Below are positions 19,127 to 60,208 of a DNA stretch of 64,000 nt, in pieces (the stretch's first letter is position 1; each line of letters opens with the position of its first letter). Source of the stretch: an uncultured Alphaproteobacteria bacterium (lineage in GTDB: Bacteria; Pseudomonadota; Alphaproteobacteria; Rhizobiales; Aestuariivirgaceae); the NCBI GenBank assembly GCA_963744915.1, contig CAVUUY010000011.1, positions 46,197 to 110,196 on the forward strand, given 5' to 3'. The translations under genes and the position numbers were made by a program. The notes beneath the pieces were generated by a model, which had not been told where the DNA came from, made no database searches, and saw only the letters and a program-made list of their open reading frames with translations.

Positions 19127-19894
19127 ATGTCTCGATGGCTCGCCGCGGCACCGCGGCACTGGGCACCGCAACTCGCCCTGTCGCTTCTCCTGCTCCTCAC
19201 CGGTTGCGGCATCAACAACATCCCGACCTACGAGGAACGGGTCAAGGCGGGCTGGAGCGACGTGCTCAATCAGTATCAGAGGCGGTCCGACCTGATTCCG
19301 AACCTGGTCGAGACGGTGAAGGGCTATGCCGCCCAGGAGAAGGACGTCCTGACCTCCGTGGTGGAGGCGCGCGCCAAGGCGACGCAGATGCAGATTCCGG
19401 CCGATGTCGTCAACAATCCGGAAGCCTTCCAGAAATTTCAGGAGAATCAGGCGCAGCTGTCGTCGTCGCTGGCACGGCTCCTGGCGGTGGTCGAGAATTA
19501 CCCCGATTTGAAGTCGAATCAGAACTTCCTGGCGCTGCAATCGCAGCTCGAGGGGACGGAGAACCGGATTTCGGTGGCGCGCCGCGACTATATCGACGCG
19601 GTCAGGGTCTACAATACGGAGCTGCGCACCATTCCCGGCCGCTGGTGGGCATCCTTCCTCTATCCCGATGCGAAGCCGGCCCAGACCTTCACCATCAAGG
19701 AGGAGGCGACCGAGGTTCCCAAGGTGGACTTCAACAAGCCAGCTGCCAAGCCGGCTGCTCCGGCGCCAGCCCCGGCTCCGGCGCCAGCCCCGGCTGCGCC
19801 AGCCCCGGCCCCGGCCCCGGTTCCGGCGCCAGCCCCGGCCGCACCTGCCCCGGCTCCTGCGCCAGCCCCGGCCGCACCAGCCCCGGCCCAATGA
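19127..19894 (+). CDS. lemA: LemA family protein with Pro/Ala-rich C-terminal tail
   Basis: ATG at 19127. An N-terminal TM/lipobox-like segment (LLLLLTGC) is followed by LemA core motifs (ERVKAGWSDVLNQYQRRSDLIPNLVETVKGYA, NRISVARRDYIDAVRVYN). Confidence 0.85.
   Translation: MSRWLAAAPRHWAPQLALSLLLLLTGCGINNIPTYEERVKAGWSDVLNQYQRRSDLIPNLVETVKGYAAQEKDVLTSVVEARAKATQMQIPADVVNNPEAFQKFQENQAQLSSSLARLLAVVENYPDLKSNQNFLALQSQLEGTENRISVARRDYIDAVRVYNTELRTIPGRWWASFLYPDAKPAQTFTIKEEATEVPKVDFNKPAAKPAAPAPAPAPAPAPAAPAPAPAPVPAPAPAAPAPAPAPAPAAPAPAQ
19738..19891 (+). repeat. in-frame low-complexity (Pro-Ala)n coding repeat at the 3' end of lemA
   Basis: Reiterated gcgccagccccggc(t/c)ccg-like units encode [51 protein letters not shown]. 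Confidence 0.8.
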
Positions 19895-20646
19895 TGCGCC
19901 GCAGCCTGGCGGTCCTCGTCGCGGCCCTCCTGGCGCTTATGCTCCATGCCGGCCCGGTCAGGGCGGAGGACCCCCAGTTCCCGCCATTGACCGGACCGCT
20001 CGTCGATGCGGCGGACCTGCTCCCGCCGACCGCGCGGGACGAGTTCGACCGGTCGCTTCGTGCCTATCAGCAGAGTTCGGGCTACCAGGTGGTGGTTGCG
20101 ATCGTCCCCTCGCTTCAGGGCTATGACATCCGCGACTATGGCAACCGCCTGTTCCGCCATTGGAAGCTCGGCGATGCCAAGCGCGACGATGGCGTGCTGC
20201 TTCTGGTCGCCCCCAAGGAACGCAAGGTGTCGATCGAGAACGGCTATGGCGTCGAGGGCGCGATGACCGATGCGCTGTCGAAGCTGATCATCGAGAATGC
20301 CATCACGCCGCGCTTCAAGACCGGCGATTTTGCCGGCGGCATCCGGGCCGGCATTGCCGATATCGAGAAGGTCCTCAACGGTGAGGGACGCAAGCTCGAG
20401 ACGGAGCTCGCGCCGCAGCAGGATCCGCTCGAAATGTGGTTCACCATCTTCGTCTGGCTGGTCATTTTCCTGATCTTCATCCAGGTCATGCGCGGTGGGT
20501 TCGTTTCCGGTCGCCGGATCGGCTATGGCGGCGGCTGGTATGGCGGCGGCTGGGGCGGCGGCGGTTTCGGCGGCGGTGGTTTTGGCGGCGGCTATAGCGG
20601 CGGAGGGGGCAGCTCGGGCGGCGGTGGCGCCTCGGGCAGCTGGTAG
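19891..20646 (+). CDS. TPM domain-containing protein (YgcG-like) with Gly-rich C-terminal tail
   Basis: The ATG at 19891 overlaps the lemA TGA. It has a signal peptide (MMRRSLAVLVAALLALMLHAGPVRA), a TPM domain (YQVVVAIVPSLQGYDIRDY, GVLLLVAPKERKVSIENGYG), a TM helix, and then a GGGWYGGGWGGGGFGGGGFGGGYSGGGG tail. Confidence 0.8.
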   Translation: MMRRSLAVLVAALLALMLHAGPVRAEDPQFPPLTGPLVDAADLLPPTARDEFDRSLRAYQQSSGYQVVVAIVPSLQGYDIRDYGNRLFRHWKLGDAKRDDGVLLLVAPKERKVSIENGYGVEGAMTDALSKLIIENAITPRFKTGDFAGGIRAGIADIEKVLNGEGRKLETELAPQQDPLEMWFTIFVWLVIFLIFIQVMRGGFVSGRRIGYGGGWYGGGWGGGGFGGGGFGGGYSGGGGSSGGGGASGSW

Positions 20647-28265: not shown

Positions 28266-29194
28266 ACCGTCAGTCCATCGCCGCTATGCACCGGTTGATC
28301 GCTCCGCATATCCGGCGCACCCCCGTCATCGACATCCATCTCGATGGTCTGCAGCGGCCGGTTACGCTCAAGCTCGAATGCCTGCAGGTCACCGGCTCGT
28401 TCAAGGCCCGCGGCGCCTATGCCAACATGGTGGGCCTCGAGCCGCCGCCGGCCGGGGTGACGGCAGCATCCGGCGGCAATCACGGCATCGCCGTGGCACG
28501 GGCGGCGGCCACGCTCGGGGTCAAGGCACGGATCTTCGTTCCCGAGATCTCCTCGCCCGCCAAGGTGGCGCGGATCAGGCAGGAGGGCGCCGAGGTGACG
28601 ATCGTGGGCGCCCGGTATGCCGATTTACTCGCCGCCTCGGAGGCCTATGCGGCGGAAAGCGGGGCGTTGCCGATCCACGCCTATAATGCCGAGGCGACGC
28701 TGCTCGGCCAGGGCACCATCGCGGCGGAGCTGGAGGCCCAGGCCAGCGATCTCGACACCATCATGGTCGCGGTCGGCGGCGGCGGGCTGATCGGCGGCAT
28801 CGCGGCGTGGTATTCCGGGGCGCATCAGATCCTGGGTATCGAGCCCTCGGGGTGCAATACCCTGGCGGCGGCGCTGGAGGCGGGCGGCCCGGTTTTGGTC
28901 GAGACGCAGGGGATCGCCGCCGATTCGCTCGGCGCATCGCGGCTTGGCGATCTGTCCTATGCCATCATGGCCCAGACCGGTGCCCGCTCCGTGCTGGTCG
29001 AGGACCACGATATCAAATCGGCCCAGATGTGGCTGTGGGACAATCTCCGGCTTCTCACCGAGCCGGGAGGTGCAACGGCGCTCGCCCCCCTGCTGTCAGG
29101 CCGCTACCAGCCGCATCCCCACGAACGGATCGGGGTGGTGATCTGCGGCGCGAATGTGGATCCGGCAACATTTGCGCGAGCGGATGGCAAATAG
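28259..29194 (+). CDS. PLP-dependent threonine/serine dehydratase (serine-racemase-like fold-type II enzyme)
   Basis: The ATG at 28259 overlaps the pdxY end. It has LECLQVTGSFKARGA (PLP lysine), SGGNHG and AVGGGGLIGG. Confidence 0.8.
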   Translation: MLNRQSIAAMHRLIAPHIRRTPVIDIHLDGLQRPVTLKLECLQVTGSFKARGAYANMVGLEPPPAGVTAASGGNHGIAVARAAATLGVKARIFVPEISSPAKVARIRQEGAEVTIVGARYADLLAASEAYAAESGALPIHAYNAEATLLGQGTIAAELEAQASDLDTIMVAVGGGGLIGGIAAWYSGAHQILGIEPSGCNTLAAALEAGGPVLVETQGIAADSLGASRLGDLSYAIMAQTGARSVLVEDHDIKSAQMWLWDNLRLLTEPGGATALAPLLSGRYQPHPHERIGVVICGANVDPATFARADGK

Positions 29195-29311
29195 TGAGCG
29201 GTGAGTAGTGAGTAGTGAGTAGTGAGTAGTGAGTAGTGAAATAGTGAGTCGTTGCACTGAACTACGCCAATCGCTCATCGCTCTTTTCTACTCACTACTC
29301 ACTACTCACCC
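29193..29311. repeat. inverted heptamer arrays: (GTGAGTA)~7 ... (TACTCAC)3
   Basis: Five perfect GTGAGTA units at 29201-29235 have degenerate units on each side (29193-29250). A spacer of about 38 nt follows, then three perfect TACTCAC units (29289-29309), the exact reverse complement. The element fills the gap between the convergent stops at 29194 and 29315. Confidence 0.9.
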
Positions 29312-33869: not shown

Positions 33870-33882
33870 TGCTCCCTACTTC

Positions 33883-35106
33883 CTACTCATTGCGGAACCC
33901 CTCCATCGCGAACGCGACGCATTCCGAGCTTGCCGTTTCGCTGGCGTGTTTTTCGCCATGCTGCCGGCTGAGGGCTTCGAAAACCCAGTCAGCCGGACGG
34001 CCAAGGATTCGTTCCTGGATCGTTACCTTGGGGGGCGATTCCGCGTTTACCTCGTAATAGACATCGGAAAACACCATCAGGATTTCTGCGATCTTGCGTG
34101 TTCTTTCAATGCCTGGATGGCTGTCCAAAATTGGATCAACGCTCGATCGGTCCGACTGATGCTGGAGCGTCGCAGCGATTTCGCGTATTGCTCGGACGTC
34201 CTGAGGATGGACTTTTGCTAGTTTCAGACTGTCAAAGAAGGCGTGGCGAATCCCTCGCTTGCCATGCTTATCGTAACCTTCCAGCAAATTGCCTATCAGC
34301 TCGAACAATGGGATCTGATTCTTCCCCGCCAGCCGTTCGACAAGGGCATTGCTTGCGGGCTCCAAATCCATCGAGGCGGCCAGCATTTCTTCGTAGGGAA
34401 GCATCCTGTTCAAATAATTGAACTGACTGACGTCCTTCCCTTGGCTTGCAGCCAATTCCTCAATTCTCCTGCGCACTCTGATGCGCTGGCGAATGTAGTC
34501 GTCACTGCCCCTGATCCAGGATCTTAGAGCTCGGCTGAGATAACCCTTTTGCCTCAGGCGACGATTGGTCTCCCGAAACATGCAGTCGAGCAAGGTCTTG
34601 GAGTTCGCTGCCTCGTCCGACGACTTGAAAACGACATCATACACGAATGCGATATTGTCTCTCAGACGCTCAAGCTGGCCGGCATGCAGGAGGCTCATCG
34701 CATCAACCAAGGCTTGGATCTGGTTCTGTTCAGATGCAATCTGTTGATAAAAGGTCTTCAACGCAGCACGGCAGCACTCGGGATCGAGTTGTCGTTGCCG
34801 GCTGAGCGCGCGGACGCACTTTTTGGCAGCGATCATGCGCTCGATTTCTTCTGCCATCATCCGCCTGGGGATGACTTCGTCCTTGAGCTCGCGGATCCTG
34901 ACGCTCGCCATGTTGATGTCATGTCTGTTGCGGAAGCCAAGCCATTCCTGCCTGAGGCCCTGAACCGCCATTTTCATCCAATGTCGCGAGGGCGCGTCTT
35001 TGCCCTGGGCGTCCCAATCCAATGGCTGCCACAGGCGTGTGATAAGAGGCATTGATCGTGTCGCTTTCTTTGAGCGCATCGAAACATAAACCAAGCGACC
35101 GGGCAC
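33883..35106 (-). CDS. hypothetical protein, no recognisable domain (low-GC orphan)
   Basis: An uninterrupted 1224-nt ORF in a segment of about 45-53% G+C, where long ORFs do not arise by chance. The product is helical and Arg/Glu-rich, with no TM helix or signal peptide. The start is uncertain: GTG 35106, ATG 35079 or ATG 35052. Confidence 0.6.
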   Translation of the reverse strand: MPGRLVYVSMRSKKATRSMPLITRLWQPLDWDAQGKDAPSRHWMKMAVQGLRQEWLGFRNRHDINMASVRIRELKDEVIPRRMMAEEIERMIAAKKCVRALSRQRQLDPECCRAALKTFYQQIASEQNQIQALVDAMSLLHAGQLERLRDNIAFVYDVVFKSSDEAANSKTLLDCMFRETNRRLRQKGYLSRALRSWIRGSDDYIRQRIRVRRRIEELAASQGKDVSQFNYLNRMLPYEEMLAASMDLEPASNALVERLAGKNQIPLFELIGNLLEGYDKHGKRGIRHAFFDSLKLAKVHPQDVRAIREIAATLQHQSDRSSVDPILDSHPGIERTRKIAEILMVFSDVYYEVNAESPPKVTIQERILGRPADWVFEALSRQHGEKHASETASSECVAFAMEGFRNE

Positions 35107-35316: not shown

Positions 35317-35344
35317 CTATTGCCTATTGCCTATTGCCTGTCGC
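35317..35344. repeat. heptamer array (CTATTGC)3 plus one degenerate unit
   Basis: ctattgc ctattgc ctattgc ctgtcgc lies 10 nt downstream of the gloB stop, at the right edge of the low-GC segment. Confidence 0.8.
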
Positions 35345-39792: not shown

Positions 39793-40338
39793 ATGGCCAA
39801 CTCCTGGGTCTTCGCTTATGGCTCGCTGATGTGGCGGCCGGACATCCCCTATGCCGAGCGGCGTCAGGCGCTGCTGCATGGCCATCACCGGCGGCTTTGC
39901 ATCTACTCCTATGTGCATCGCGGCAGCCCGGAGAAGCCCGGCCTGGTGATGGGGCTCGATCGCGGCGGGGCCTGCCGCGGCATCGCCTATCGCATCGAAG
40001 CGGCGCAGTGGCCGGCCACCCTCGCCTATCTGCGAGCCCGCGAGCAGGTCACGGCCGTCTATGTCGAAAGCGAGCGTCCGGTGCGGCTGCTCGACGGCGA
40101 CCGGCGCGTGGTGACGGCGCTGGTCTACGAGGCCGACCGGAGTCATCCCCAATATGCCGGCCGCCTCGGCTTCGAGGACCAGCTGCGCCATGTGCTGCAG
40201 GGAGTGGGGGTGTCCGGCCGCTGCGTCGACTATGTGAGCCAAACGGTCGCGCATCTCGAAGAGATGAACATCCGCGACGCCGCGCTCGAAGCGCTGGCGG
40301 TGGCAATAGGCAATAGGCAAGTAGGCAATAGGCAATAG
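39793..40338 (+). CDS. gamma-glutamylcyclotransferase (ChaC family)
   Basis: WVFAYGSLMWRP and GLVMGLDRGGACRGIAYRI match the ChaC family. The last 11 codons (AIGNRQVGNRQ*) are encoded by the heptamer array. Confidence 0.8.
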   Translation: MANSWVFAYGSLMWRPDIPYAERRQALLHGHHRRLCIYSYVHRGSPEKPGLVMGLDRGGACRGIAYRIEAAQWPATLAYLRAREQVTAVYVESERPVRLLDGDRRVVTALVYEADRSHPQYAGRLGFEDQLRHVLQGVGVSGRCVDYVSQTVAHLEEMNIRDAALEALAVAIGNRQVGNRQ

Positions 40339-40411
40339 GCAAAAGACTGCGCTGCTCCTGCTCACTACTCACTACTCACTACTTGCCTATTGCCTATTTG
40401 CCTACTTGCCC
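40302..40411. repeat. composite nested inverted heptamer arrays: (GGCAATA)~6 - spacer - (CTCACTA)3 - (TTGCCTA)~4
   Basis: 40302-40343 reads ggcaata ggcaata ggcaagt aggcaat aggcaat aggcaaa. 40361-40381 reads ctcacta x3. 40383-40411 reads ttgccta ttgccta tttgccta cttgcc, the reverse complement of the left arm. The element sits between the convergent stops at 40338 and 40415. Confidence 0.9.
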
Positions 40412-40414
40412 CTT

Positions 40415-41311
40415 TCAACTCTTCCGCTCGACGATGAAGCGGGCCGCTTCGGCCAACAGCTTCGCGCGCTCGCCGAAGCGGTCGAGGGCGGCGACTGCTT
40501 CCCCGGTCAGGGCGGCTGCACGGGCCTTGGCGCCGGCAAGCCCGAAATGATCGATGAAGGTCGCCTTGCCGGCCGAGCGGTCCTTCTGGGTCGCCTTGCC
40601 GAGCGCGTCGGGGGTCGATTCGACGTCGAGGACATCATCGGCGATCTGGAAGGCGAGGCCGATCTTGTCGGCGAAGGTGGCGAGCGCGGCGCGGTCGGCG
40701 GCGCCGGCCCTGGCCAGGATGGCGCCGGCTTCGAGCGAGTAGCGGAACAGCGCTCCGGTCTTCATCCCCTGCAGCAGCACGATGTGATCGAGATCGAAGT
40801 CGCTCTGCTGCTCGGCCAGGAGATCGAGCATCTGGCCGCCGACCATGCCGGAATGACCCGCAGCGCCGGCGAGGTTGGCGATGAGGTCGACACGGATGGC
40901 GGCGTCGGGATGGGTCAGCGGATCGGCAAGGATGTCGAAGGCGAGGGTGAGCAGCCCGTCCCCGGCGAGAATGGCAGTGGCCTCGTCGAATGCCTTGTGG
41001 CAGGTCGGCTTGCCGCGCCGCAGGTCGTCATCGTCCATGGCGGGCAGATCGTCATGGACCAGCGAGTAGCAATGGACGCATTCGAGCGCGACCCCGGTGC
41101 GCAGTGCCCCCTCGGCGGGGGCATCCAGAATGCGGGCGCTCTCGGTCACGAAGAACGGCCTGATGCGCTTGCCCTGGCCAATCGCGGCATAGCGCATCGC
41201 CTCGACGATGCGCGGCGCCCGGGCATTGTCGAGCGGCAGCAGCTGGTCGAGCAGCCGGTCGACCTCGGCGGCGGTGCGCTTCAGGGCAGTTTCAAGATTT
41301 ATGCGATTCAC
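40415..41311 (-). CDS. ispA: polyprenyl (farnesyl/geranylgeranyl) diphosphate synthase
   Basis: Both Asp-rich motifs are present (LVHDDLPAMDDDDLRRGKPT and FQIADDVLD). The probable GTG start at 41311 is preceded by GGGAAAAGA. The ORF-track start is 41386. Confidence 0.85.
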   Translation of the reverse strand: MNRINLETALKRTAAEVDRLLDQLLPLDNARAPRIVEAMRYAAIGQGKRIRPFFVTESARILDAPAEGALRTGVALECVHCYSLVHDDLPAMDDDDLRRGKPTCHKAFDEATAILAGDGLLTLAFDILADPLTHPDAAIRVDLIANLAGAAGHSGMVGGQMLDLLAEQQSDFDLDHIVLLQGMKTGALFRYSLEAGAILARAGAADRAALATFADKIGLAFQIADDVLDVESTPDALGKATQKDRSAGKATFIDHFGLAGAKARAAALTGEAVAALDRFGERAKLLAEAARFIVERKS

Positions 41312-47133: not shown

Positions 47134-48111
47134 ATGAAGGCTGTGCTATGCAGGGCACTCGGACCGGCGGCCAATCTGGTGGTGGAGGATCTGCCCTCGC
47201 CCGAGCCCGGACCCGGCGAGGCTGTGGTCACGGTGAGGGCGGCCGGCCTCAATTTCTTCGATACGCTGATCATCGAAGGGAAATACCAGTTCAAGCCCGA
47301 TCCGCCTTTCTCGCCGGCCGCCGAATTCGCCGGCACGGTCAAGGCCGTCGGACCGGCGGTGGTCGCAATCCGGCCGGGGGACCGGGTCATGGGCTATTGC
47401 GGCTGGGGGGCGGCGCGCGAGGAGATCGCGGTCGCGGCAGGCGCGCTTGCCCCGATTCCGCCTTCGATCTCCTTCGAGGAGGCGGCCGGGCTCATCGTCA
47501 CCTACGGCACGACCTACCATGCGCTCCACGACCGGGCGCGGCTTCGCCCGGGGGAGACGCTGGCGGTGCTTGGGGCCTCGGGAGGGGTCGGCCAGGCGGC
47601 AATCGAGCTCGGCAAGGCGATGGGGGCGCGGGTCATCGCCTGTGCCTCCTCCGAGGACAAGCTCGCCCTCTGCCGCTCGCTCGGGGCGGATGCCGTTGTC
47701 AATTATTCGACAGCATCGCTGCGCGACTCCCTGAAGGAGCTGACGGAAGGCCGGGGCGTGGACGTGGTCTATGATCCGGTCGGGGGAACCCTCTCGGAGG
47801 CGGCGCTGCGGGCCACCGCCTGGGAGGGGCGGTTCCTGGTGATCGGCTTCGCCTCGGGCACCATTCCGAAAATCCCGCTCAACCTGGTGTTGCTGAAAGG
47901 CTGCGAGCTCGTCGGCGTGTTCTGGGGCGACCATGTGGCGCGCGAGCCCCACAAGCACCGCGCCAACATGGCGCAACTCGCCGAAATGTGCAGCACCGGG
48001 CGGATCAGGCCGCGCATCGACCGGGTGTTCCCGCTCGAGCAGACGGCGGCGGCGCTCGGAGTGCTGTCCCGCCGGGAGGCGCAGGGCAAGGTGATCCTGG
48101 TCCCGGGCTAG
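47134..48111 (+). CDS. NADPH:quinone oxidoreductase (MDR/zeta-crystallin family)
   Basis: 325 aa with MKAVLC..., AAGLNFFD, VLGASGGVGQAAIELGKAMGARV and GKVILV. Confidence 0.85.
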   Translation: MKAVLCRALGPAANLVVEDLPSPEPGPGEAVVTVRAAGLNFFDTLIIEGKYQFKPDPPFSPAAEFAGTVKAVGPAVVAIRPGDRVMGYCGWGAAREEIAVAAGALAPIPPSISFEEAAGLIVTYGTTYHALHDRARLRPGETLAVLGASGGVGQAAIELGKAMGARVIACASSEDKLALCRSLGADAVVNYSTASLRDSLKELTEGRGVDVVYDPVGGTLSEAALRATAWEGRFLVIGFASGTIPKIPLNLVLLKGCELVGVFWGDHVAREPHKHRANMAQLAEMCSTGRIRPRIDRVFPLEQTAAALGVLSRREAQGKVILVPG

Positions 48112-48131
48112 CCCGCCGAGACGAGCACTGT

Positions 48132-48169
48132 CCTATTGCCTATTGCCCATTGCCTATTGCCTGTTGCCC
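48132..48169. repeat. degenerate heptamer array (CCYRTTG)5
   Basis: cctattg cctattg cccattg cctattg cctgttg ccc starts 21 nt after the qor-like stop and about 170 nt upstream of ffh. Confidence 0.85.
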
Positions 48170-48337
48170 GCACATGGCCTAGAAGGCCGGCACATTCCGG
48201 AAGACGCTTGAAGCCTCTTCTTGCCCCGCTCACATGGTGCTTGCGCACGCACCGGGAGGCGCGGGGTCCGACACCCGCCAGCGATGTTCGCCCGCGGGTG
48301 CAATGGCGTTTGAGGCGTCCGAAAGAGACGAGGACAG

Positions 48338-49918
48338 ATGTTCGAGACACTGCAGGAACGGCTTTCCGGAATTTTCGACCGGCTCACCGGGCGCGGATCG
48401 CTGTCGGAAGCCGATGTCGATGCGGCAATGCGGGAGGTGCGGCGGGCCCTGATCGAGGCCGATGTCGCGCTCGAGGTGGTGCGTTCCTTCACCGAGCAGG
48501 TGCGCCAGCGCGCGATCGGCCAGGAGGTCGTCCGGTCGATCAAGCCGGGCCAGATGGTGATCAAGATCGTGCACGACGCCCTCGTCGACACGCTTGGACG
48601 CGATGCCGTGCCGCTCGATCTCAAGGCGGCGGCGCCGGTGCCGGTGCTGATGGTCGGCCTGCAGGGCTCGGGCAAGACCACGACCACCGCGAAGATCGCC
48701 AAGCGGCTCAAGGAGCGTGAGCGCAAGCGGGTGTTGATGGCCTCCCTCGACACCGCGCGGCCGGCCGCCCAGGAGCAGCTAGCGATCCTCGGACGCCAGA
48801 TCGGGGTGGACACCCTGGCGATCGTCAAGGGCGAGAAGGCGCTGGACATCACCCGGCGGGCCCTGGACGAGGCGCGGCGCGGCGGCTTCGACGTGCTGAT
48901 GCTCGATACCGCCGGGCGGCAGCATATCGATGAGACGCTGATGAACGAGGTGGTTGCGGTCCGCGACATCGCAAAGCCGCACGAGACGCTGCTCGTCGCC
49001 AATTCGCTGACCGGCCAGGACGCCGTCAATCTCGCCCGCAGCTTCGATCAGCGGGTCGGGGTCAGCGGCATCGTGCTCACCCGCGTCGATGGCGATGGCC
49101 GCGGCGGTGCGGCGCTGGCGATGCGGGCGGTGACGGGCAAGCCGATCAAGCTCATCGGCACCGGCGAGCGGCTGGACGGGCTCGAGGACTTCCACCCCGA
49201 GCGGATCGCCGGGCGGATTCTCGGCATGGGCGACGTGGTGAGCCTGGTCGAAAAGGCGGCGCTCGAGATCGACGCCGACAAGGCACGAAAGATCGCCGCC
49301 CGCATGAAGAAGGGCGCCTTCGATCTCGACGACCTGGCGGAGCAGCTGAAGCAGCTGCAGAAGCTTGGCGGCATGTCTGGCGTCATGGGCCTGCTGCCCG
49401 GCCTCGGCAAGGCCAGGAAGCAGCTCGACAATATCGATCTCGACAAGCTCGTGCTGGGGCGGCAGCTGGCGATCATCGGCTCGATGACCATGTTCGAGCG
49501 GCACAATCCCAAGGTGCTCAACGCCTCGCGCAAGAAGCGTGTTGCCAAGGGTTCCGGCACCGAGGTGCAGGAGATCAACCGTCTGCTCAAGATGCATCTG
49601 CAGATGGGCGACATGATGAAGCGGATGGGCAAGCAGCGGGGCGGCCTTTTCGGCGGCCTGTTCGGCGGCGGCCAGCCGAGCGTCGACATGGCCGAGCTCG
49701 AGCGGCTGCAGGGCGAGCTCAAGAACCTCGATCCCGCGGCGCTGCCGCCGGAGCTGAGAAACCTGCCGCCGCTCGATGGCGGGTTGCCGAAAACCCTCCC
49801 GGGGCTCGGTGCCGCGGGTGGCGGGCTGCTGCCCGGGCTCGGCGGCCGCCGAGCCCCGCAAGGGCCGGGGCTCGGTGGTCCCAAGGGCCTTCCCGGCTTC
49901 CCCTTCAAGAAGAAATGA
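48338..49918 (+). CDS. ffh: signal recognition particle protein Ffh
   Basis: 526 aa with MFETLQERLSGIFDRL, GLQGSGKTTT, DTAGR and a Met-rich M domain. It has a Gly/Pro/Leu-rich C-terminal tail. Confidence 0.95.
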   Translation: MFETLQERLSGIFDRLTGRGSLSEADVDAAMREVRRALIEADVALEVVRSFTEQVRQRAIGQEVVRSIKPGQMVIKIVHDALVDTLGRDAVPLDLKAAAPVPVLMVGLQGSGKTTTTAKIAKRLKERERKRVLMASLDTARPAAQEQLAILGRQIGVDTLAIVKGEKALDITRRALDEARRGGFDVLMLDTAGRQHIDETLMNEVVAVRDIAKPHETLLVANSLTGQDAVNLARSFDQRVGVSGIVLTRVDGDGRGGAALAMRAVTGKPIKLIGTGERLDGLEDFHPERIAGRILGMGDVVSLVEKAALEIDADKARKIAARMKKGAFDLDDLAEQLKQLQKLGGMSGVMGLLPGLGKARKQLDNIDLDKLVLGRQLAIIGSMTMFERHNPKVLNASRKKRVAKGSGTEVQEINRLLKMHLQMGDMMKRMGKQRGGLFGGLFGGGQPSVDMAELERLQGELKNLDPAALPPELRNLPPLDGGLPKTLPGLGAAGGGLLPGLGGRRAPQGPGLGGPKGLPGFPFKKK

Positions 49919-55012: not shown

Positions 55013-55031
55013 GGCGGCAGGCCACGCACCG

Positions 55032-55063
55032 CCTGTTGCCCATTGCCCTGTTGCCCATTGCCT
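55032..55063. repeat. degenerate heptamer array (CCYRTTG)4
   Basis: cctgttg cccattg ccctgttg cccattg cct starts 20 nt after the priA stop and about 160 nt upstream of atpH. Confidence 0.8.
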
Positions 55064-60180: not shown

Positions 60181-60208
60181 CCACCCACCACTCACCACTC
60201 ACCACTTT
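60181..60208. repeat. heptamer array (CCACTCA-type, 4 units)
   Basis: ccaccca ccactca ccactca ccacttt starts 4 nt after the atpC stop and overlaps the stop and last codons of pxpC on the minus strand. Confidence 0.7.

What the first reader, a model, noticed from the sequence alone, without database searches (positions are those of the whole stretch)
40302..40411. Nested inverted array combining both heptamer families, which also encodes the C-terminus and stop of the ChaC-like gene
- **Structure (seen).** The left arm (GGCAATA-type, about 6 units, 40302-40343) and right arm (TTGCCTA-type, about 4 units, 40383-40411) are reverse complements. They can pair over more than 25 bp.
- **Loop (seen).** The loop carries three perfect CTCACTA units (40361-40381). 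This is the same unit family as the 29.2-kb array.
- **Position (seen).** The element exactly fills the gap between the convergent chaC-like stop (40338) and ispA stop (40415).
- **Coding overlap (seen).** The ChaC-like ORF reads 11 codons into the left arm (AIGNRQVGNRQ) and terminates on a repeat-borne TAG.
- **Inference.** Gain or loss of one 7-nt unit would change the frame, yet the protein would still terminate within 21 nt. The C-terminal tail is therefore repeat-determined and potentially variable. The hairpin could act as a shared terminator for both genes.
Basis: partly seen in the sequence, partly recalled or inferred. Interest (0 to 1): 0.6.

Follow-up and report, generated by a model that had tools for sequence, protein, structure and literature searches.

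The report
Hypervariable heptamer-repeat hairpin between convergent genes
The spacer between two convergent housekeeping genes of a soil alphaproteobacterium is built from slippage-prone 7-base repeats that form a long hairpin and supply the last codons and stop of one gene; this kind of repeat is already known from other bacteria.

Summary
Window 40302-40413 holds a GGCAATA-type array, three CTCACTA units and a TTGCCTA-type array. The outer arrays pair (RNA fold z -4.6 on + and -5.3 on -). The ChaC-like ORF takes its last 11 codons and its TAG from the left array.

It is one of seven AT-rich heptamer arrays in the window (0 in shuffles). All seven lie at gene 3' ends. The organism is an Aestuariivirgaceae-like soil bacterium.

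The same chaC/ispA gap in three related species also carries inverted heptamer arrays, but with other units (GTGAGTA, GGCAGTA). Near-identical strains differ by whole units. ChaC tails in one 90% cluster give lengths of 174, 176, 177, 178 and 181 aa, plus one 514-aa read-through form.

Termination within 21 nt is not guaranteed. A shared terminator role is plausible but untested: there is no U-tract and no usable 3'-end data.

The closest known kind is the dispersed heptameric SSRs of Xanthomonas (GGGAATC), cyanobacteria (STRR) and Beggiatoaceae (TAACTGA), whose function is unresolved. I rate this a new member of a known kind, of moderate interest.

The parts
39793..40338 (+). ChaC-like (gamma-glutamylcyclotransferase family) CDS, 181 aa. 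The last 11 codons and the TAG stop (40336-40338) are encoded by the left repeat arm.
   Evidence: Pfam PF04752 ChaC, E 1.1e-41, residues 5-172 of 181. ORF listing. Tail alignment.
40302..40345 (+). Left arm: six GGCAATA-type units (GGCAATA x2, GGCAAGTA, GGCAATA x2, GGCAAAAG). It carries TAG in all three + strand frames (2/1/2) and no stop on the - strand.
   Evidence: TRF, sequence, stop count. The L099 strain has (GGCAATA)x6 without the 8-nt unit. An X3 contig has +7 nt here.
40346..40360 (.). Non-repeat spacer ACTGCGCTGCTCCTG at the centre of the element.
   Evidence: Sequence.
40361..40381 (+). Three perfect CTCACTA units (reverse complement TAGTGAG), with no matching arm on the left. They align with the right arm of the relatives' GTGAGTA/CTACTCA hairpins. 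The copy number is 2, 3 or 5 in near-identical strains.
   Evidence: TRF. Strain alleles. Species alignment.
40383..40411 (+). Right arm: TTGCCTA TTGCCTA TTTGCCTA CTTGCCC, the reverse complement of the left-arm unit. On the - strand it reads TAGGCAA-type units and carries stops in two of the three frames (2/0/1).
   Evidence: L102 and L099 carry one more TTGCCTA unit.
40415..41311 (-). ispA-like polyprenyl (farnesyl) diphosphate synthase CDS. Its stop at 40415-40417 is native and conserved (…FIVERKS* / …FIVERKN*). The start codon is uncertain: gene callers give 295 aa.
   Evidence: Pfam PF00348, E 1.5e-51. Gene calls. Conserved 3' end in the alignment.
29192..29309 (.). Sister element: (TAGTGAG/GTGAGTA)x8 … (CTACTCA)x3 as inverted arrays between convergent PALP-enzyme (+) and formate-tetrahydrofolate ligase (-) genes. 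The PALP stop TAG (29192-29194) lies in a GGCAAATAG unit.
   Evidence: TRF. Pfam. Fold -64.3 kcal/mol, z -7.35. Copy number differs among strain contigs.
35317..35339 (.). Single array (CTATTGC)x3, 15 nt downstream of the gloB-like stop (- strand, 35354). It has 2 units in strain L109.
   Evidence: No unusual fold (z -0.94).
48132..48168 (.). Single array (CCTATTG)x5, 21 nt downstream of a Zn-dependent dehydrogenase stop (+) and upstream of the ffh leader.
   Evidence: No unusual fold (z +1.7).
55032..55062 (.). Single degenerate array (TTGCCCA type), 20 nt downstream of the priA stop and upstream of the atp operon. Its first unit pairs with an upstream GGGCGGCAGG to give an 11-bp hairpin.
   Evidence: Invariant in four strain contigs.
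60181..60206 (.). Single array (CCACTCA type) between the end of the atp operon (+) and a CT_A_B carboxyltransferase-domain gene (-). That gene's TGA stop (60199-60201) lies in a repeat unit.

Best explanation
**What it is.** The element is one locus of a lineage-wide family of slippage-prone heptanucleotide tandem arrays. In the purine-rich orientation the units follow T[A/G]G[G/T][G/C]A[A/G]: TAGGCAA, TAGGCAG, TAGTGAG.

**Shown.**
- The arrays sit at gene and operon 3' ends.
- They gain and lose whole units between near-identical strains.
- Their unit sequence is replaced between species while the site and the inverted layout persist.
- At chaC/ispA the left array has overrun the 3' end of chaC, so the ChaC tail and stop are repeat-coded and polymorphic.

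**Inferred.**
- Arrays grow and shrink by replication slippage.
- The two arms are kept alike by intrastrand template switching between them, by selection, or by both.
- The resulting ~30-bp register-tolerant hairpin forms in both convergent transcripts. There it acts as a 3'-end structure: a termination or pause barrier and a block to 3' exonucleases. This limits read-through of each gene into the antisense of the other.
- The purine-rich arm comes first in both reading directions. It therefore offers TAG/TGA stops to any ORF that runs into the array, which is why invasion of a gene end is tolerated.
For: **Family.**
- The window has 7 period-7 arrays against 0 in shuffles.
- Pfam-based gene maps place all seven just 3' of stop codons, at convergent junctions or operon ends. 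None lies between divergent genes.
- Depth over the GGCAATA arm is 20-50x that of the single-copy flanks in four soil and rhizosphere metagenomes.

**Slippage.** Whole-unit alleles occur in contigs that encode an identical TyrC:
- -1 CTCACTA in three Illumina contigs from three samples.
- +1 TTGCCTA in L102.
- A 6-perfect-unit left arm with 5 CTCACTA units in L099.
- +7 nt in an X3 contig.

**Persistence with turnover.** L001, L033 and L002 (81-86% ChaC identity) carry inverted heptamer arrays in the same gap with other units. On the + strand their folds have z -5.1 to -5.8. The - strand gives -2.9 (L001), -5.1 (L033) and -6.1 (L002). L099 gives z -9.2.

**Concerted change.** The coding part reads GCAATAGGCAAT in the window and GCAGTAGGCAGT in L002. 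The same unit position has changed in every copy.

**Tail polymorphism.**

**Stop asymmetry of the arms.**

**Second site.** The other strong hairpin (29.2 kb) also lies between convergent genes.

**Literature.** Stem-loops mark transcript 3' ends for both Rho-independent and Rho-dependent termination (PMC13613805).
Against: - There is no U-tract after the stem on either strand, and the loop is 37 nt or more. This is not a canonical intrinsic terminator.
- Four of the seven arrays are single and fold no better than shuffles. A fifth, the short array at 33.87 kb, was not folded. Hairpin formation is therefore not a property of the family as a whole.
- Strain variants change one arm or the loop without a matching change in the other arm.
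- No transcript 3' ends could be mapped. The RNA contigs show only that (GGCAATA)n is present in soil RNA pools.
- The equivalent Xanthomonas repeats have resisted functional assignment (PMC4692102).
Confidence: 0.55

Rival explanations
1. The arrays are a neutral or selfish by-product. Heptamer SSRs arise and persist purely through polymerase slippage in the few places where they do no harm, namely gene 3' ends. The inverted layout comes from template switching in quasi-palindromes. The hairpin has no cellular role.
For: - Unit changes between strains are uncompensated.
- Single arrays lack structure.
- Short degenerate arrays are invariant while long perfect ones are hypervariable, as expected for slippage alone.
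- Heptamer SSRs are over-represented in many bacteria, and this has been attributed to polymerase slippage (PMC4692102, discussion).
- No function was found for the Xanthomonas repeats (PMC4692102).
Against: - The same unit families recur at independent loci and at high copy number.
- The inverted architecture is kept at one site across four species while its sequence is replaced.
- Both strong hairpins sit exactly between convergent genes.
Confidence: 0.3
2. The arrays are multivalent binding sites for a lineage-specific sequence-specific protein that binds DNA, ssDNA or RNA. The unit sequence is what is selected. The hairpin is incidental.
For: - A restricted unit vocabulary is shared by dispersed loci.
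- Single arrays exist without structure.
- Protein binding has been proposed for TAACTGA repeats (PMC4679880) and for Nostoc heptamers (bioRxiv 10.1101/2022.06.06.494920).
Against: - The unit sequence differs between close species at the same site: GGCAATA, GGCAGTA and GTGAGTA.
- No candidate binding protein was identified here.
- Array orientation relative to the adjacent gene is not uniform.
Confidence: 0.1
3. The array is a contingency (phase-variation) locus. Slippage in the array switches ChaC between a normal form and a non-functional, long read-through form.
For: - Simulated loss of unit 4 or unit 5 gives a 509-aa fusion.
- A 514-aa product exists in the 90% cluster.
Against: - 10 of 12 single-unit changes alter only 0-7 tail residues beyond the Pfam domain end.
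- ChaC and the other array-adjacent genes are housekeeping enzymes, not surface or host-interaction genes.
- The 514-aa form is seen on a single 2.2-kb contig and may be an assembly error.
Confidence: 0.04
4. The arrays are REP/REPIN- or MITE-like mobile elements, spread by a RAYT-type transposase.
For: They are dispersed, extragenic, partly palindromic and placed at 3' ends, as REP elements are (PMC3733652).
Against: - There is no defined 20-40-nt palindromic unit.
- The array loci share no conserved flanks, terminal repeats or target duplications.
- No transposase was found among the called genes from about 21 to 62 kb.
- Variation is by whole heptamers in place.
Confidence: 0.03

Closest known systems
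GGGAATC heptameric repeats of Xanthomonas campestris / X. axonopodis (Rehm et al. 2015, PMC4692102)
   Same: - Tandem 7-nt units dispersed over the genome (~185 arrays).
- 89-93% intergenic and close to the end of the upstream ORF (mean 28 nt).
- Rare between divergent genes.
- 70-75 pairs in convergent (inverted) orientation that could form stem-loops.
[quoted passage not shown]
- Transcribed.
- Function unknown.
   Different: - The unit here is TAGGCAA/TAGTGAG, with no G-tracts, so no G-quadruplex is expected.
- The host is a Hyphomicrobiales soil bacterium.
- The units carry stop codons, and several genes end inside them.
- Two or three unit variants are mixed within one locus.
Cyanobacterial STRR (short tandemly repeated repetitive) heptamers (Calothrix/Nostoc; cited in PMC4692102 as ref. 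39; details from my own knowledge)
   Same: - Several families of tandem heptanucleotides dispersed in non-coding DNA of one lineage.
- Copy number is variable.
- Function is unresolved.
   Different: - The unit sequences and the phylum differ.
- Nostoc heptamers have been discussed mainly near start codons and promoters (bioRxiv 10.1101/2022.06.06.494920). Here all arrays are at gene 3' ends.
TAACTGA direct repeats of marine Beggiatoaceae (MacGregor 2015, PMC4679880)
   Same: - A heptamer containing stop codons, tandemly repeated 2-6 times at ~170 intergenic sites.
- It is also found in scattered other phyla.
   Different: - Those repeats lie mostly a few nucleotides upstream of start codons and are proposed to act in translation.
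- Only one inverted pair was reported. Here the arrays are at 3' ends and include long inverted pairs.
REP/BIME extragenic palindromes (PMC3733652)
   Same: - Abundant extragenic repeats at 3' ends and between convergent genes that form RNA hairpins.
- They are credited with mRNA stabilisation and termination effects. This is what the present hairpin most plausibly works like.
   Different: - REPs are discrete 20-40-nt palindromes linked to RAYT transposases.
- They are not tandem heptamers that vary by slippage.
Bidirectional intrinsic terminators between convergent genes (own knowledge: Ju et al. 2019, Nat Microbiol)
   Same: A single hairpin in a short convergent spacer that serves both transcripts.
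   Different: - Canonical examples have a short GC-rich stem flanked by an A-tract and a U-tract.
- Here the stem is ~30 bp and about 45-50% GC, the loop is large, and there is no U-tract.

Membership tests
Dispersed bacterial heptanucleotide SSR arrays (Xanthomonas GGGAATC / cyanobacterial STRR kind) | Tandem repetition of a 7-nt unit, at least 2-3 copies | tested here: met
   TRF gives period 7 with 5.7 copies, 3.3 copies and about 4 copies.
Dispersed bacterial heptanucleotide SSR arrays (Xanthomonas GGGAATC / cyanobacterial STRR kind) | Many dispersed loci in one genome that share the same or related units | tested here: met
   The 64-kb window has seven loci against 0 in shuffles. Metagenome depth over the array is 20-50x that of the flanks. 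No whole-genome census was possible.
Dispersed bacterial heptanucleotide SSR arrays (Xanthomonas GGGAATC / cyanobacterial STRR kind) | Intergenic location, close to the 3' end of the upstream ORF, rare between divergent genes | tested here: met
   All seven arrays lie 0-21 nt from a stop codon or overlap one. None lies between divergent genes.
Dispersed bacterial heptanucleotide SSR arrays (Xanthomonas GGGAATC / cyanobacterial STRR kind) | Frequent inverted (convergent) pairs of arrays | tested here: met
   Two of the seven loci, at 29.2 kb and 40.3 kb, are inverted pairs.
Dispersed bacterial heptanucleotide SSR arrays (Xanthomonas GGGAATC / cyanobacterial STRR kind) | Length and sequence variation at the same gene pair in close relatives | tested here: met
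   Strain alleles are shown. Species-level unit replacement is shown.
Dispersed bacterial heptanucleotide SSR arrays (Xanthomonas GGGAATC / cyanobacterial STRR kind) | G-tracts able to form G-quadruplexes (specific to the Xanthomonas/Nostoc G-rich subfamily) | tested here: not met
   The units hold at most GG. This places the element in the general kind, not in the G4 subfamily.
Rho-independent (bidirectional) terminator | Short GC-rich stem-loop followed by a U-tract, on both strands if bidirectional | tested here: not met
   The consensus scan finds nothing at the locus. The sequence after the stem is CCCCTTTCAAC on + and GCCACCGCCAG on -.
Rho-independent (bidirectional) terminator | Transcript 3' ends map to the hairpin | not testable with these tools
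   Only sparse metatranscriptome contigs are available, with no 3'-end data.
REP/REPIN elements | A discrete 20-40-nt imperfect palindrome with conserved ends, associated with a RAYT transposase | tested here: not met
   The arrays are tandem heptamers of variable length with no shared flanks. No transposase is among the called genes from about 21 to 62 kb. The rest of the genome was not seen.
SSR contingency (phase-variation) locus | A change in unit number switches the gene product on or off | tested here: inconclusive
   Ten of 12 simulated single-unit changes alter only the tail, and 2 of 12 give a 509-aa read-through. One 514-aa natural or assembly variant is on record.
SSR contingency (phase-variation) locus | Association with surface, restriction or host-interaction genes | tested here: not met
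   The adjacent genes are ChaC, IspA, a PALP enzyme, FTHFS, GloB, PriA, atp genes and others.

The most novel reading that the evidence does not exclude
The inverted heptamer arrays are a self-renewing, tunable class of 3'-end element. The hairpin pairs in any register, so it survives slippage. Its arms are homogenised by template switching. Its length, and so its termination or insulation strength between convergent genes, drifts or is selected in steps of 7 nt. The purine-rich arm comes first in each reading direction and carries TAG/TGA stops, which lets the element overwrite native stop codons safely. This would give the long-unexplained bacterial heptamer SSRs a concrete function.
Probability: 0.15. 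Interest if true: 0.65.

Novelty: new member of a known kind. Interest (0 to 1): 0.4.

Why it matters
- Dispersed heptamer repeats have been known since 1990 in cyanobacteria, and later in Xanthomonas and Beggiatoaceae, without an accepted function.
- This lineage offers a clean natural series at one convergent gene pair. That pair shows four species-level versions of the hairpin, and at least four strain-level unit-number alleles.
- The repeat visibly writes the C-terminus and stop codon of a housekeeping enzyme. That makes the terminator, insulator and no-function alternatives directly testable with simple reporter constructs.
- There is a practical warning for annotation. In such genomes, C-terminal length differences and occasional giant read-through ORFs can be repeat slippage rather than biology or error elsewhere.

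Tried and rejected
- **Rfam.** The gathering-threshold search of the whole window gave no family at the locus. The only hit was the ffh leader at 48257-48308.
- **Canonical terminators.** The scan found 23 sites over the window against about 31 expected. None was at the locus. The hairpin is not an L-shaped terminator, and the genome shows no enrichment for them.
- **RNA evidence.** Four soil metatranscriptomes gave only a few 150-nt contigs on the gene bodies and a collapsed 37-nt (GGCAATA)n contig. No 3' ends could be read.
- **Sigma-54 promoter reading of GGCAA…TTGCC.** Rejected by inspection of the spacing: with a 7-nt period, GG and GC fall 1, 8 or 15 nt apart, not the required 12.
- **REP/MITE reading.** Rejected because the loci share no flanks and no transposase is nearby.
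- **Viral-contig scan for (GGCAATA)x4.** It gave 10 hits in contigs of 25-60% GC, often starting at the stop of an upstream ORF. This shows the unit is not lineage-exclusive. With one unit searched, it says nothing about frequency.
- **Long-read contigs at the 29.2-kb site.** Some variants look like sequencing noise, for example GTGAGTGGAGTAG. Only whole-unit differences were used.
- **Failed call.** One read-laying run failed and was repeated.
Full report
**1. What is in the sequence**

The window has 66.5% G+C. Three AT-richer tandem arrays lie at 40302-40413.
- The left arm is GGCAATA GGCAATA GGCAAGTA GGCAATA GGCAATA GGCAAAAG (40302-40345).
- A 15-nt unique spacer follows.
- Then come three perfect CTCACTA units (40361-40381).
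- The right arm is TTGCCTA TTGCCTA TTTGCCTA CTTGCCC (40383-40411).

The outer arrays are reverse complements of each other: 22 nt at 95%, 16 nt at 100% and 34 nt at 82%.

| Strand | Fold energy | Shuffles | z-score |
|---|---|---|---|
| + RNA | -51.8 kcal/mol | -36.0 +/- 3.4 | -4.6 |
| - RNA | -61.4 kcal/mol | -42.3 +/- 3.6 | -5.3 |

No shuffle out of 200 folded as well on either strand. G-U pairs let the TAGTGAG units join the stem on the - strand.

The + strand ORF 39793-40338 is a ChaC-family protein (PF04752, E 1.1e-41). The Pfam match ends at residue 172 of 181. Its last 11 codons (AIGNRQVGNRQ) and its TAG lie in the left arm.

The - strand gene is a polyprenyl diphosphate synthase (PF00348, E 1.5e-51). 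Its stop at 40415-40417 lies 3 nt beyond the right arm. The only correction is that the element overlaps chaC by 37 nt rather than exactly filling the gap.

**2. It is one member of a family**

Period-7 arrays occur seven times in the window and 0.0 times in 20 dinucleotide shuffles. Periods 8-12 give none. The other six sites are listed below.

| Site | Unit | Context |
|---|---|---|
| 29192-29309 | (TAGTGAG)x8 … (CTACTCA)x3 | Inverted pair between a convergent PALP-enzyme gene and formate-tetrahydrofolate ligase |
| 33870-33887 | CCTACTT type | Between convergent phaB-like and hypothetical genes |
| 35317-35339 | (CTATTGC)x3 | After the gloB-like gene |
| 48132-48168 | (CCTATTG)x5 | After a Zn-dehydrogenase gene |
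| 55032-55062 | TTGCCCA type | After priA |
| 60181-60206 | CCACTCA type | Between the end of the atp operon and a CT_A_B gene |

- Every array lies at the 3' end of a gene or operon. None lies between divergent genes or inside an operon.
- In the purine-rich orientation the units are variants of one theme: TAGGCAA, TAGGCAG, TAGTGAG, TGGGCAA, TGAGTGG.
- The 29.2-kb array even starts with a GGCAAATAG unit. Mixing of the 'two families' is therefore not special to this locus.
- For four genes the stop codon itself is inside a repeat unit. These are chaC, the PALP gene (29192-29194), the 389-aa hypothetical (33883-33885) and the CT_A_B gene (60199-60201).
- The two inverted pairs fold very strongly (29.2 kb: -64.3 kcal/mol, z -7.35).
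- The four single arrays that were folded do no better than shuffles (z -0.94 to +1.7). The short array at 33.87 kb was not folded.

**3. Origin of the window and related species**

The nearest genome records are Aestuariivirgaceae MAGs of the Hyphomicrobiales, at 81-84% ChaC identity. One metagenome contig reaches 86%.

In all three related species that span the junction (L001, L002, L033), chaC and ispA are convergent neighbours. The gap is again built of inverted heptamer arrays, but with different units.
- L001 has GTGAGTA … CTACTCA.
- L033 has a degenerate GTGAGTR … CTACTCA around a central palindrome.
- L002 has (GGCAGTA)x7 … TGCCTAC-type units.

On the + strand all three fold far better than shuffles (z -5.1 to -5.8). 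On the - strand L033 (-5.1) and L002 (-6.1) do too, while L001 is weaker (z -2.9; 5 of 200 shuffles fold as well).

The DNA alignment shows conserved flanks. These run up to GA[AG]GCGCT in chaC and resume at CTTCAA[CT]TCTTCC at the ispA stop. The middle has been replaced. The window's CTCACTA 'loop' array aligns with the right arm of L001 and L033. I read it as a remnant of an older GTGAGTA/CTACTCA hairpin whose left arm was replaced. This reading is inference.

More distant ChaC loci (62% identity or less) have neither ispA next door nor AT-rich heptamer arrays.

**4. The ChaC tail**

Orthologues without repeats keep the last helix up to the residues aligned with '…EALAVAIG'. After that they end in unrelated tails of up to 12 residues.

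The repeat-bearing relatives end in other repeat-coded tails.
- L001 ends in …GKAVSSEIVSSE*.
- L002 ends in …GRAVGSRQ*.
- L033 ends in …RKAVGSKERVSGEQ*.

The coding part reads GCA ATA GGC AAT in the window and GCA GTA GGC AGT in L002. The same unit position has changed in every copy, which indicates concerted evolution of the array, including its coding part.

**5. Variation among near-identical strains**

Contigs encoding a TyrC identical to the window's carry these alleles at the locus.
- The reference allele is found in five contigs.
- One CTCACTA unit fewer occurs in three Illumina contigs from three samples.
- One TTGCCTA unit more occurs in L102.
- L099 has six perfect GGCAATA units without the 8-nt unit, five CTCACTA units and one more right-arm unit.

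A Logan contig of run X3 carries 7 extra letters in the left arm. This is inferred from its coordinates.

The 90%-identity cluster of the ChaC protein holds products of several lengths.

| Length | Tail | Record |
|---|---|---|
| 181 aa | AIGNRQVGNRQ | P0003 (15 contigs) |
| 176 aa | AIGNRQ | P0005 |
| 174 aa | ASRQ | P0007 |
| 177 aa | AGNRQRQ | P0015 |
| 178 aa | KAAAESGGQ, not of the GGCAATA type | P0004 |
| 514 aa | read-through | P0009 |

In P0009, VGNRQ is repeated three times and the ORF then runs on antisense to ispA.

At the 29.2-kb site nearly every long-read contig differs in GTGAGTA copy number, although part of that may be sequencing noise. The short degenerate arrays are invariant.

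Metagenome depth over the GGCAATA arm is 20-50 times that of the flanks, as expected for a multi-copy repeat.

**6. The 'fail-safe stop' idea**

The left arm has TAG in all three + strand frames and no stop on the - strand. The right arm is the mirror image, but with stops in only two of the three - strand frames. Both convergent genes therefore meet the stop-bearing arm first.

I simulated single-unit changes in the window allele.
- Ten of the 12 changes end ChaC within the array, at 174-181 aa.
- Loss of unit 4 or unit 5 gives a 509-aa read-through.

The reason is that only two perfect units follow the 8-nt unit. A 7+8 = 15-nt super-unit stays in frame, which is what P0009 shows.

**7. Function**

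- **Shown:** the position at convergent 3' ends; a conserved inverted architecture with sequence turnover; strong predicted hairpins on both strands; the presence of (GGCAATA)n in soil RNA pools at depths of 18.6 and 59 against about 3 for gene bodies (DNA carry-over is not excluded).
- **Not shown:** any transcript 3' end.
- **Against a canonical terminator:** there is no U-tract. Such terminators are not enriched anywhere in the window, with 23 found against about 31 expected.

Stem-loops mark 3' ends in Rho-dependent termination too (PMC13613805). REP hairpins are credited with similar roles (PMC3733652).

My preferred reading has two parts. The repeats are generated and varied by slippage. 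Between convergent genes they provide a register-tolerant hairpin that acts as a barrier and stabiliser for both transcripts. Overall confidence is 0.55: the repeat-dynamics part is solid and the functional part is inferred. The main rival is that the hairpin has no function (0.3).

**8. Comparison with known systems**

The closest described system is the GGGAATC heptamers of Xanthomonas (PMC4692102).
- There are about 185 arrays per genome.
- 89-93% are intergenic, at a mean of 28 nt from the upstream ORF end.
- They are rare between divergent genes.
- 70-75 occur as inverted convergent pairs.
- They lie between the same genes in sister species, with different length and sequence.
- They are transcribed, and their function is unknown.

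Cyanobacterial STRR heptamers and the TAACTGA repeats of Beggiatoaceae (PMC4679880) are of the same general kind.

The present case meets every general feature of that kind. It lacks the G-quadruplex potential of the Xanthomonas subfamily. It adds a new host lineage, new stop-bearing units, and direct evidence that the arrays write polymorphic C-termini and stop codons. I classify it as a new member of a known kind, with interest 0.4.

Noticed in passing
window 48257-48308 (+): There is an Rfam ffh sRNA/leader motif here (RF01793, 50.6 bits, E 1.2e-06). It sits just upstream of the ffh (SRP54) gene at 48338-49918, and 90 nt downstream of the (CCTATTG)x5 array.
   Followed up: no
window 29192-29194, 33883-33885 (-), 60199-60201 (-): Three further genes take their stop codon from a heptamer unit. 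They are a PALP (threonine-dehydratase-like) enzyme, a 389-aa hypothetical protein and a CT_A_B carboxyltransferase-domain protein.
   Followed up: partly
protein P0009 (ENA contig of 2246 nt), same 90% cluster as window 39793-40338: This 514-aa ChaC read-through product has a tail of AIGNRQ followed by VGNRQ twice more, and then the antisense of ispA. It arises when 7+8-nt super-units (15 nt) keep the frame. It could be a real allele or an assembly error.
   Followed up: partly
window 33870-33887, 35317-35339, 48132-48168, 55032-55062, 60181-60206: All five single arrays have the pyrimidine-rich version of the unit on the + strand. That strand has positive GC skew throughout the window (+0.006 to +0.064). 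This could reflect a replication-strand bias of slippage, but with n = 5 it is not significant.
   Followed up: partly
window 55013-55041 (+): Immediately after the priA stop, an upstream GGGCGGCAGG pairs with the first unit of the array (CCTGTTGCCC). This gives an 11-bp hairpin, a miniature version of the inverted arrangement.
   Followed up: no
L119-L128 (IMG/VR viral contigs): (GGCAATA)x4 or longer arrays occur in 10 viral contigs of 25-60% G+C. They often begin at what looks like the stop of an upstream ORF, and in several cases lie just before a ribosome-binding site. L127 has an inverted pair around a palindrome, plus another heptamer array (GTCTGTCAGT-like).
   Followed up: partly
L115 about 2290-2400, corresponding to window 48105-48185: One strain contig (ERZ25039464) has a different, longer and mostly non-repeat sequence in place of the (CCTATTG)x5 array. 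Its neighbouring dehydrogenase and ffh genes are fragmented, which suggests either a local assembly problem or a real rearrangement.
   Followed up: no
L113 (ERZ25039536 contig_166037): Several genes (GDH, thiolase, DAO) are split into pieces in this long-read contig, which indicates frameshift errors. Its repeat variants, including L102 from the same contig, deserve caution.
   Followed up: no
window 19760-19888 and 20520-20593: These are GC-rich coding-type tandem repeats of period 33/45 (CCGGCC/CCAGCC-rich, Pro/Ala-like) and period 12-27 (GGC-rich). They are unrelated to the heptamer family.
   Followed up: no
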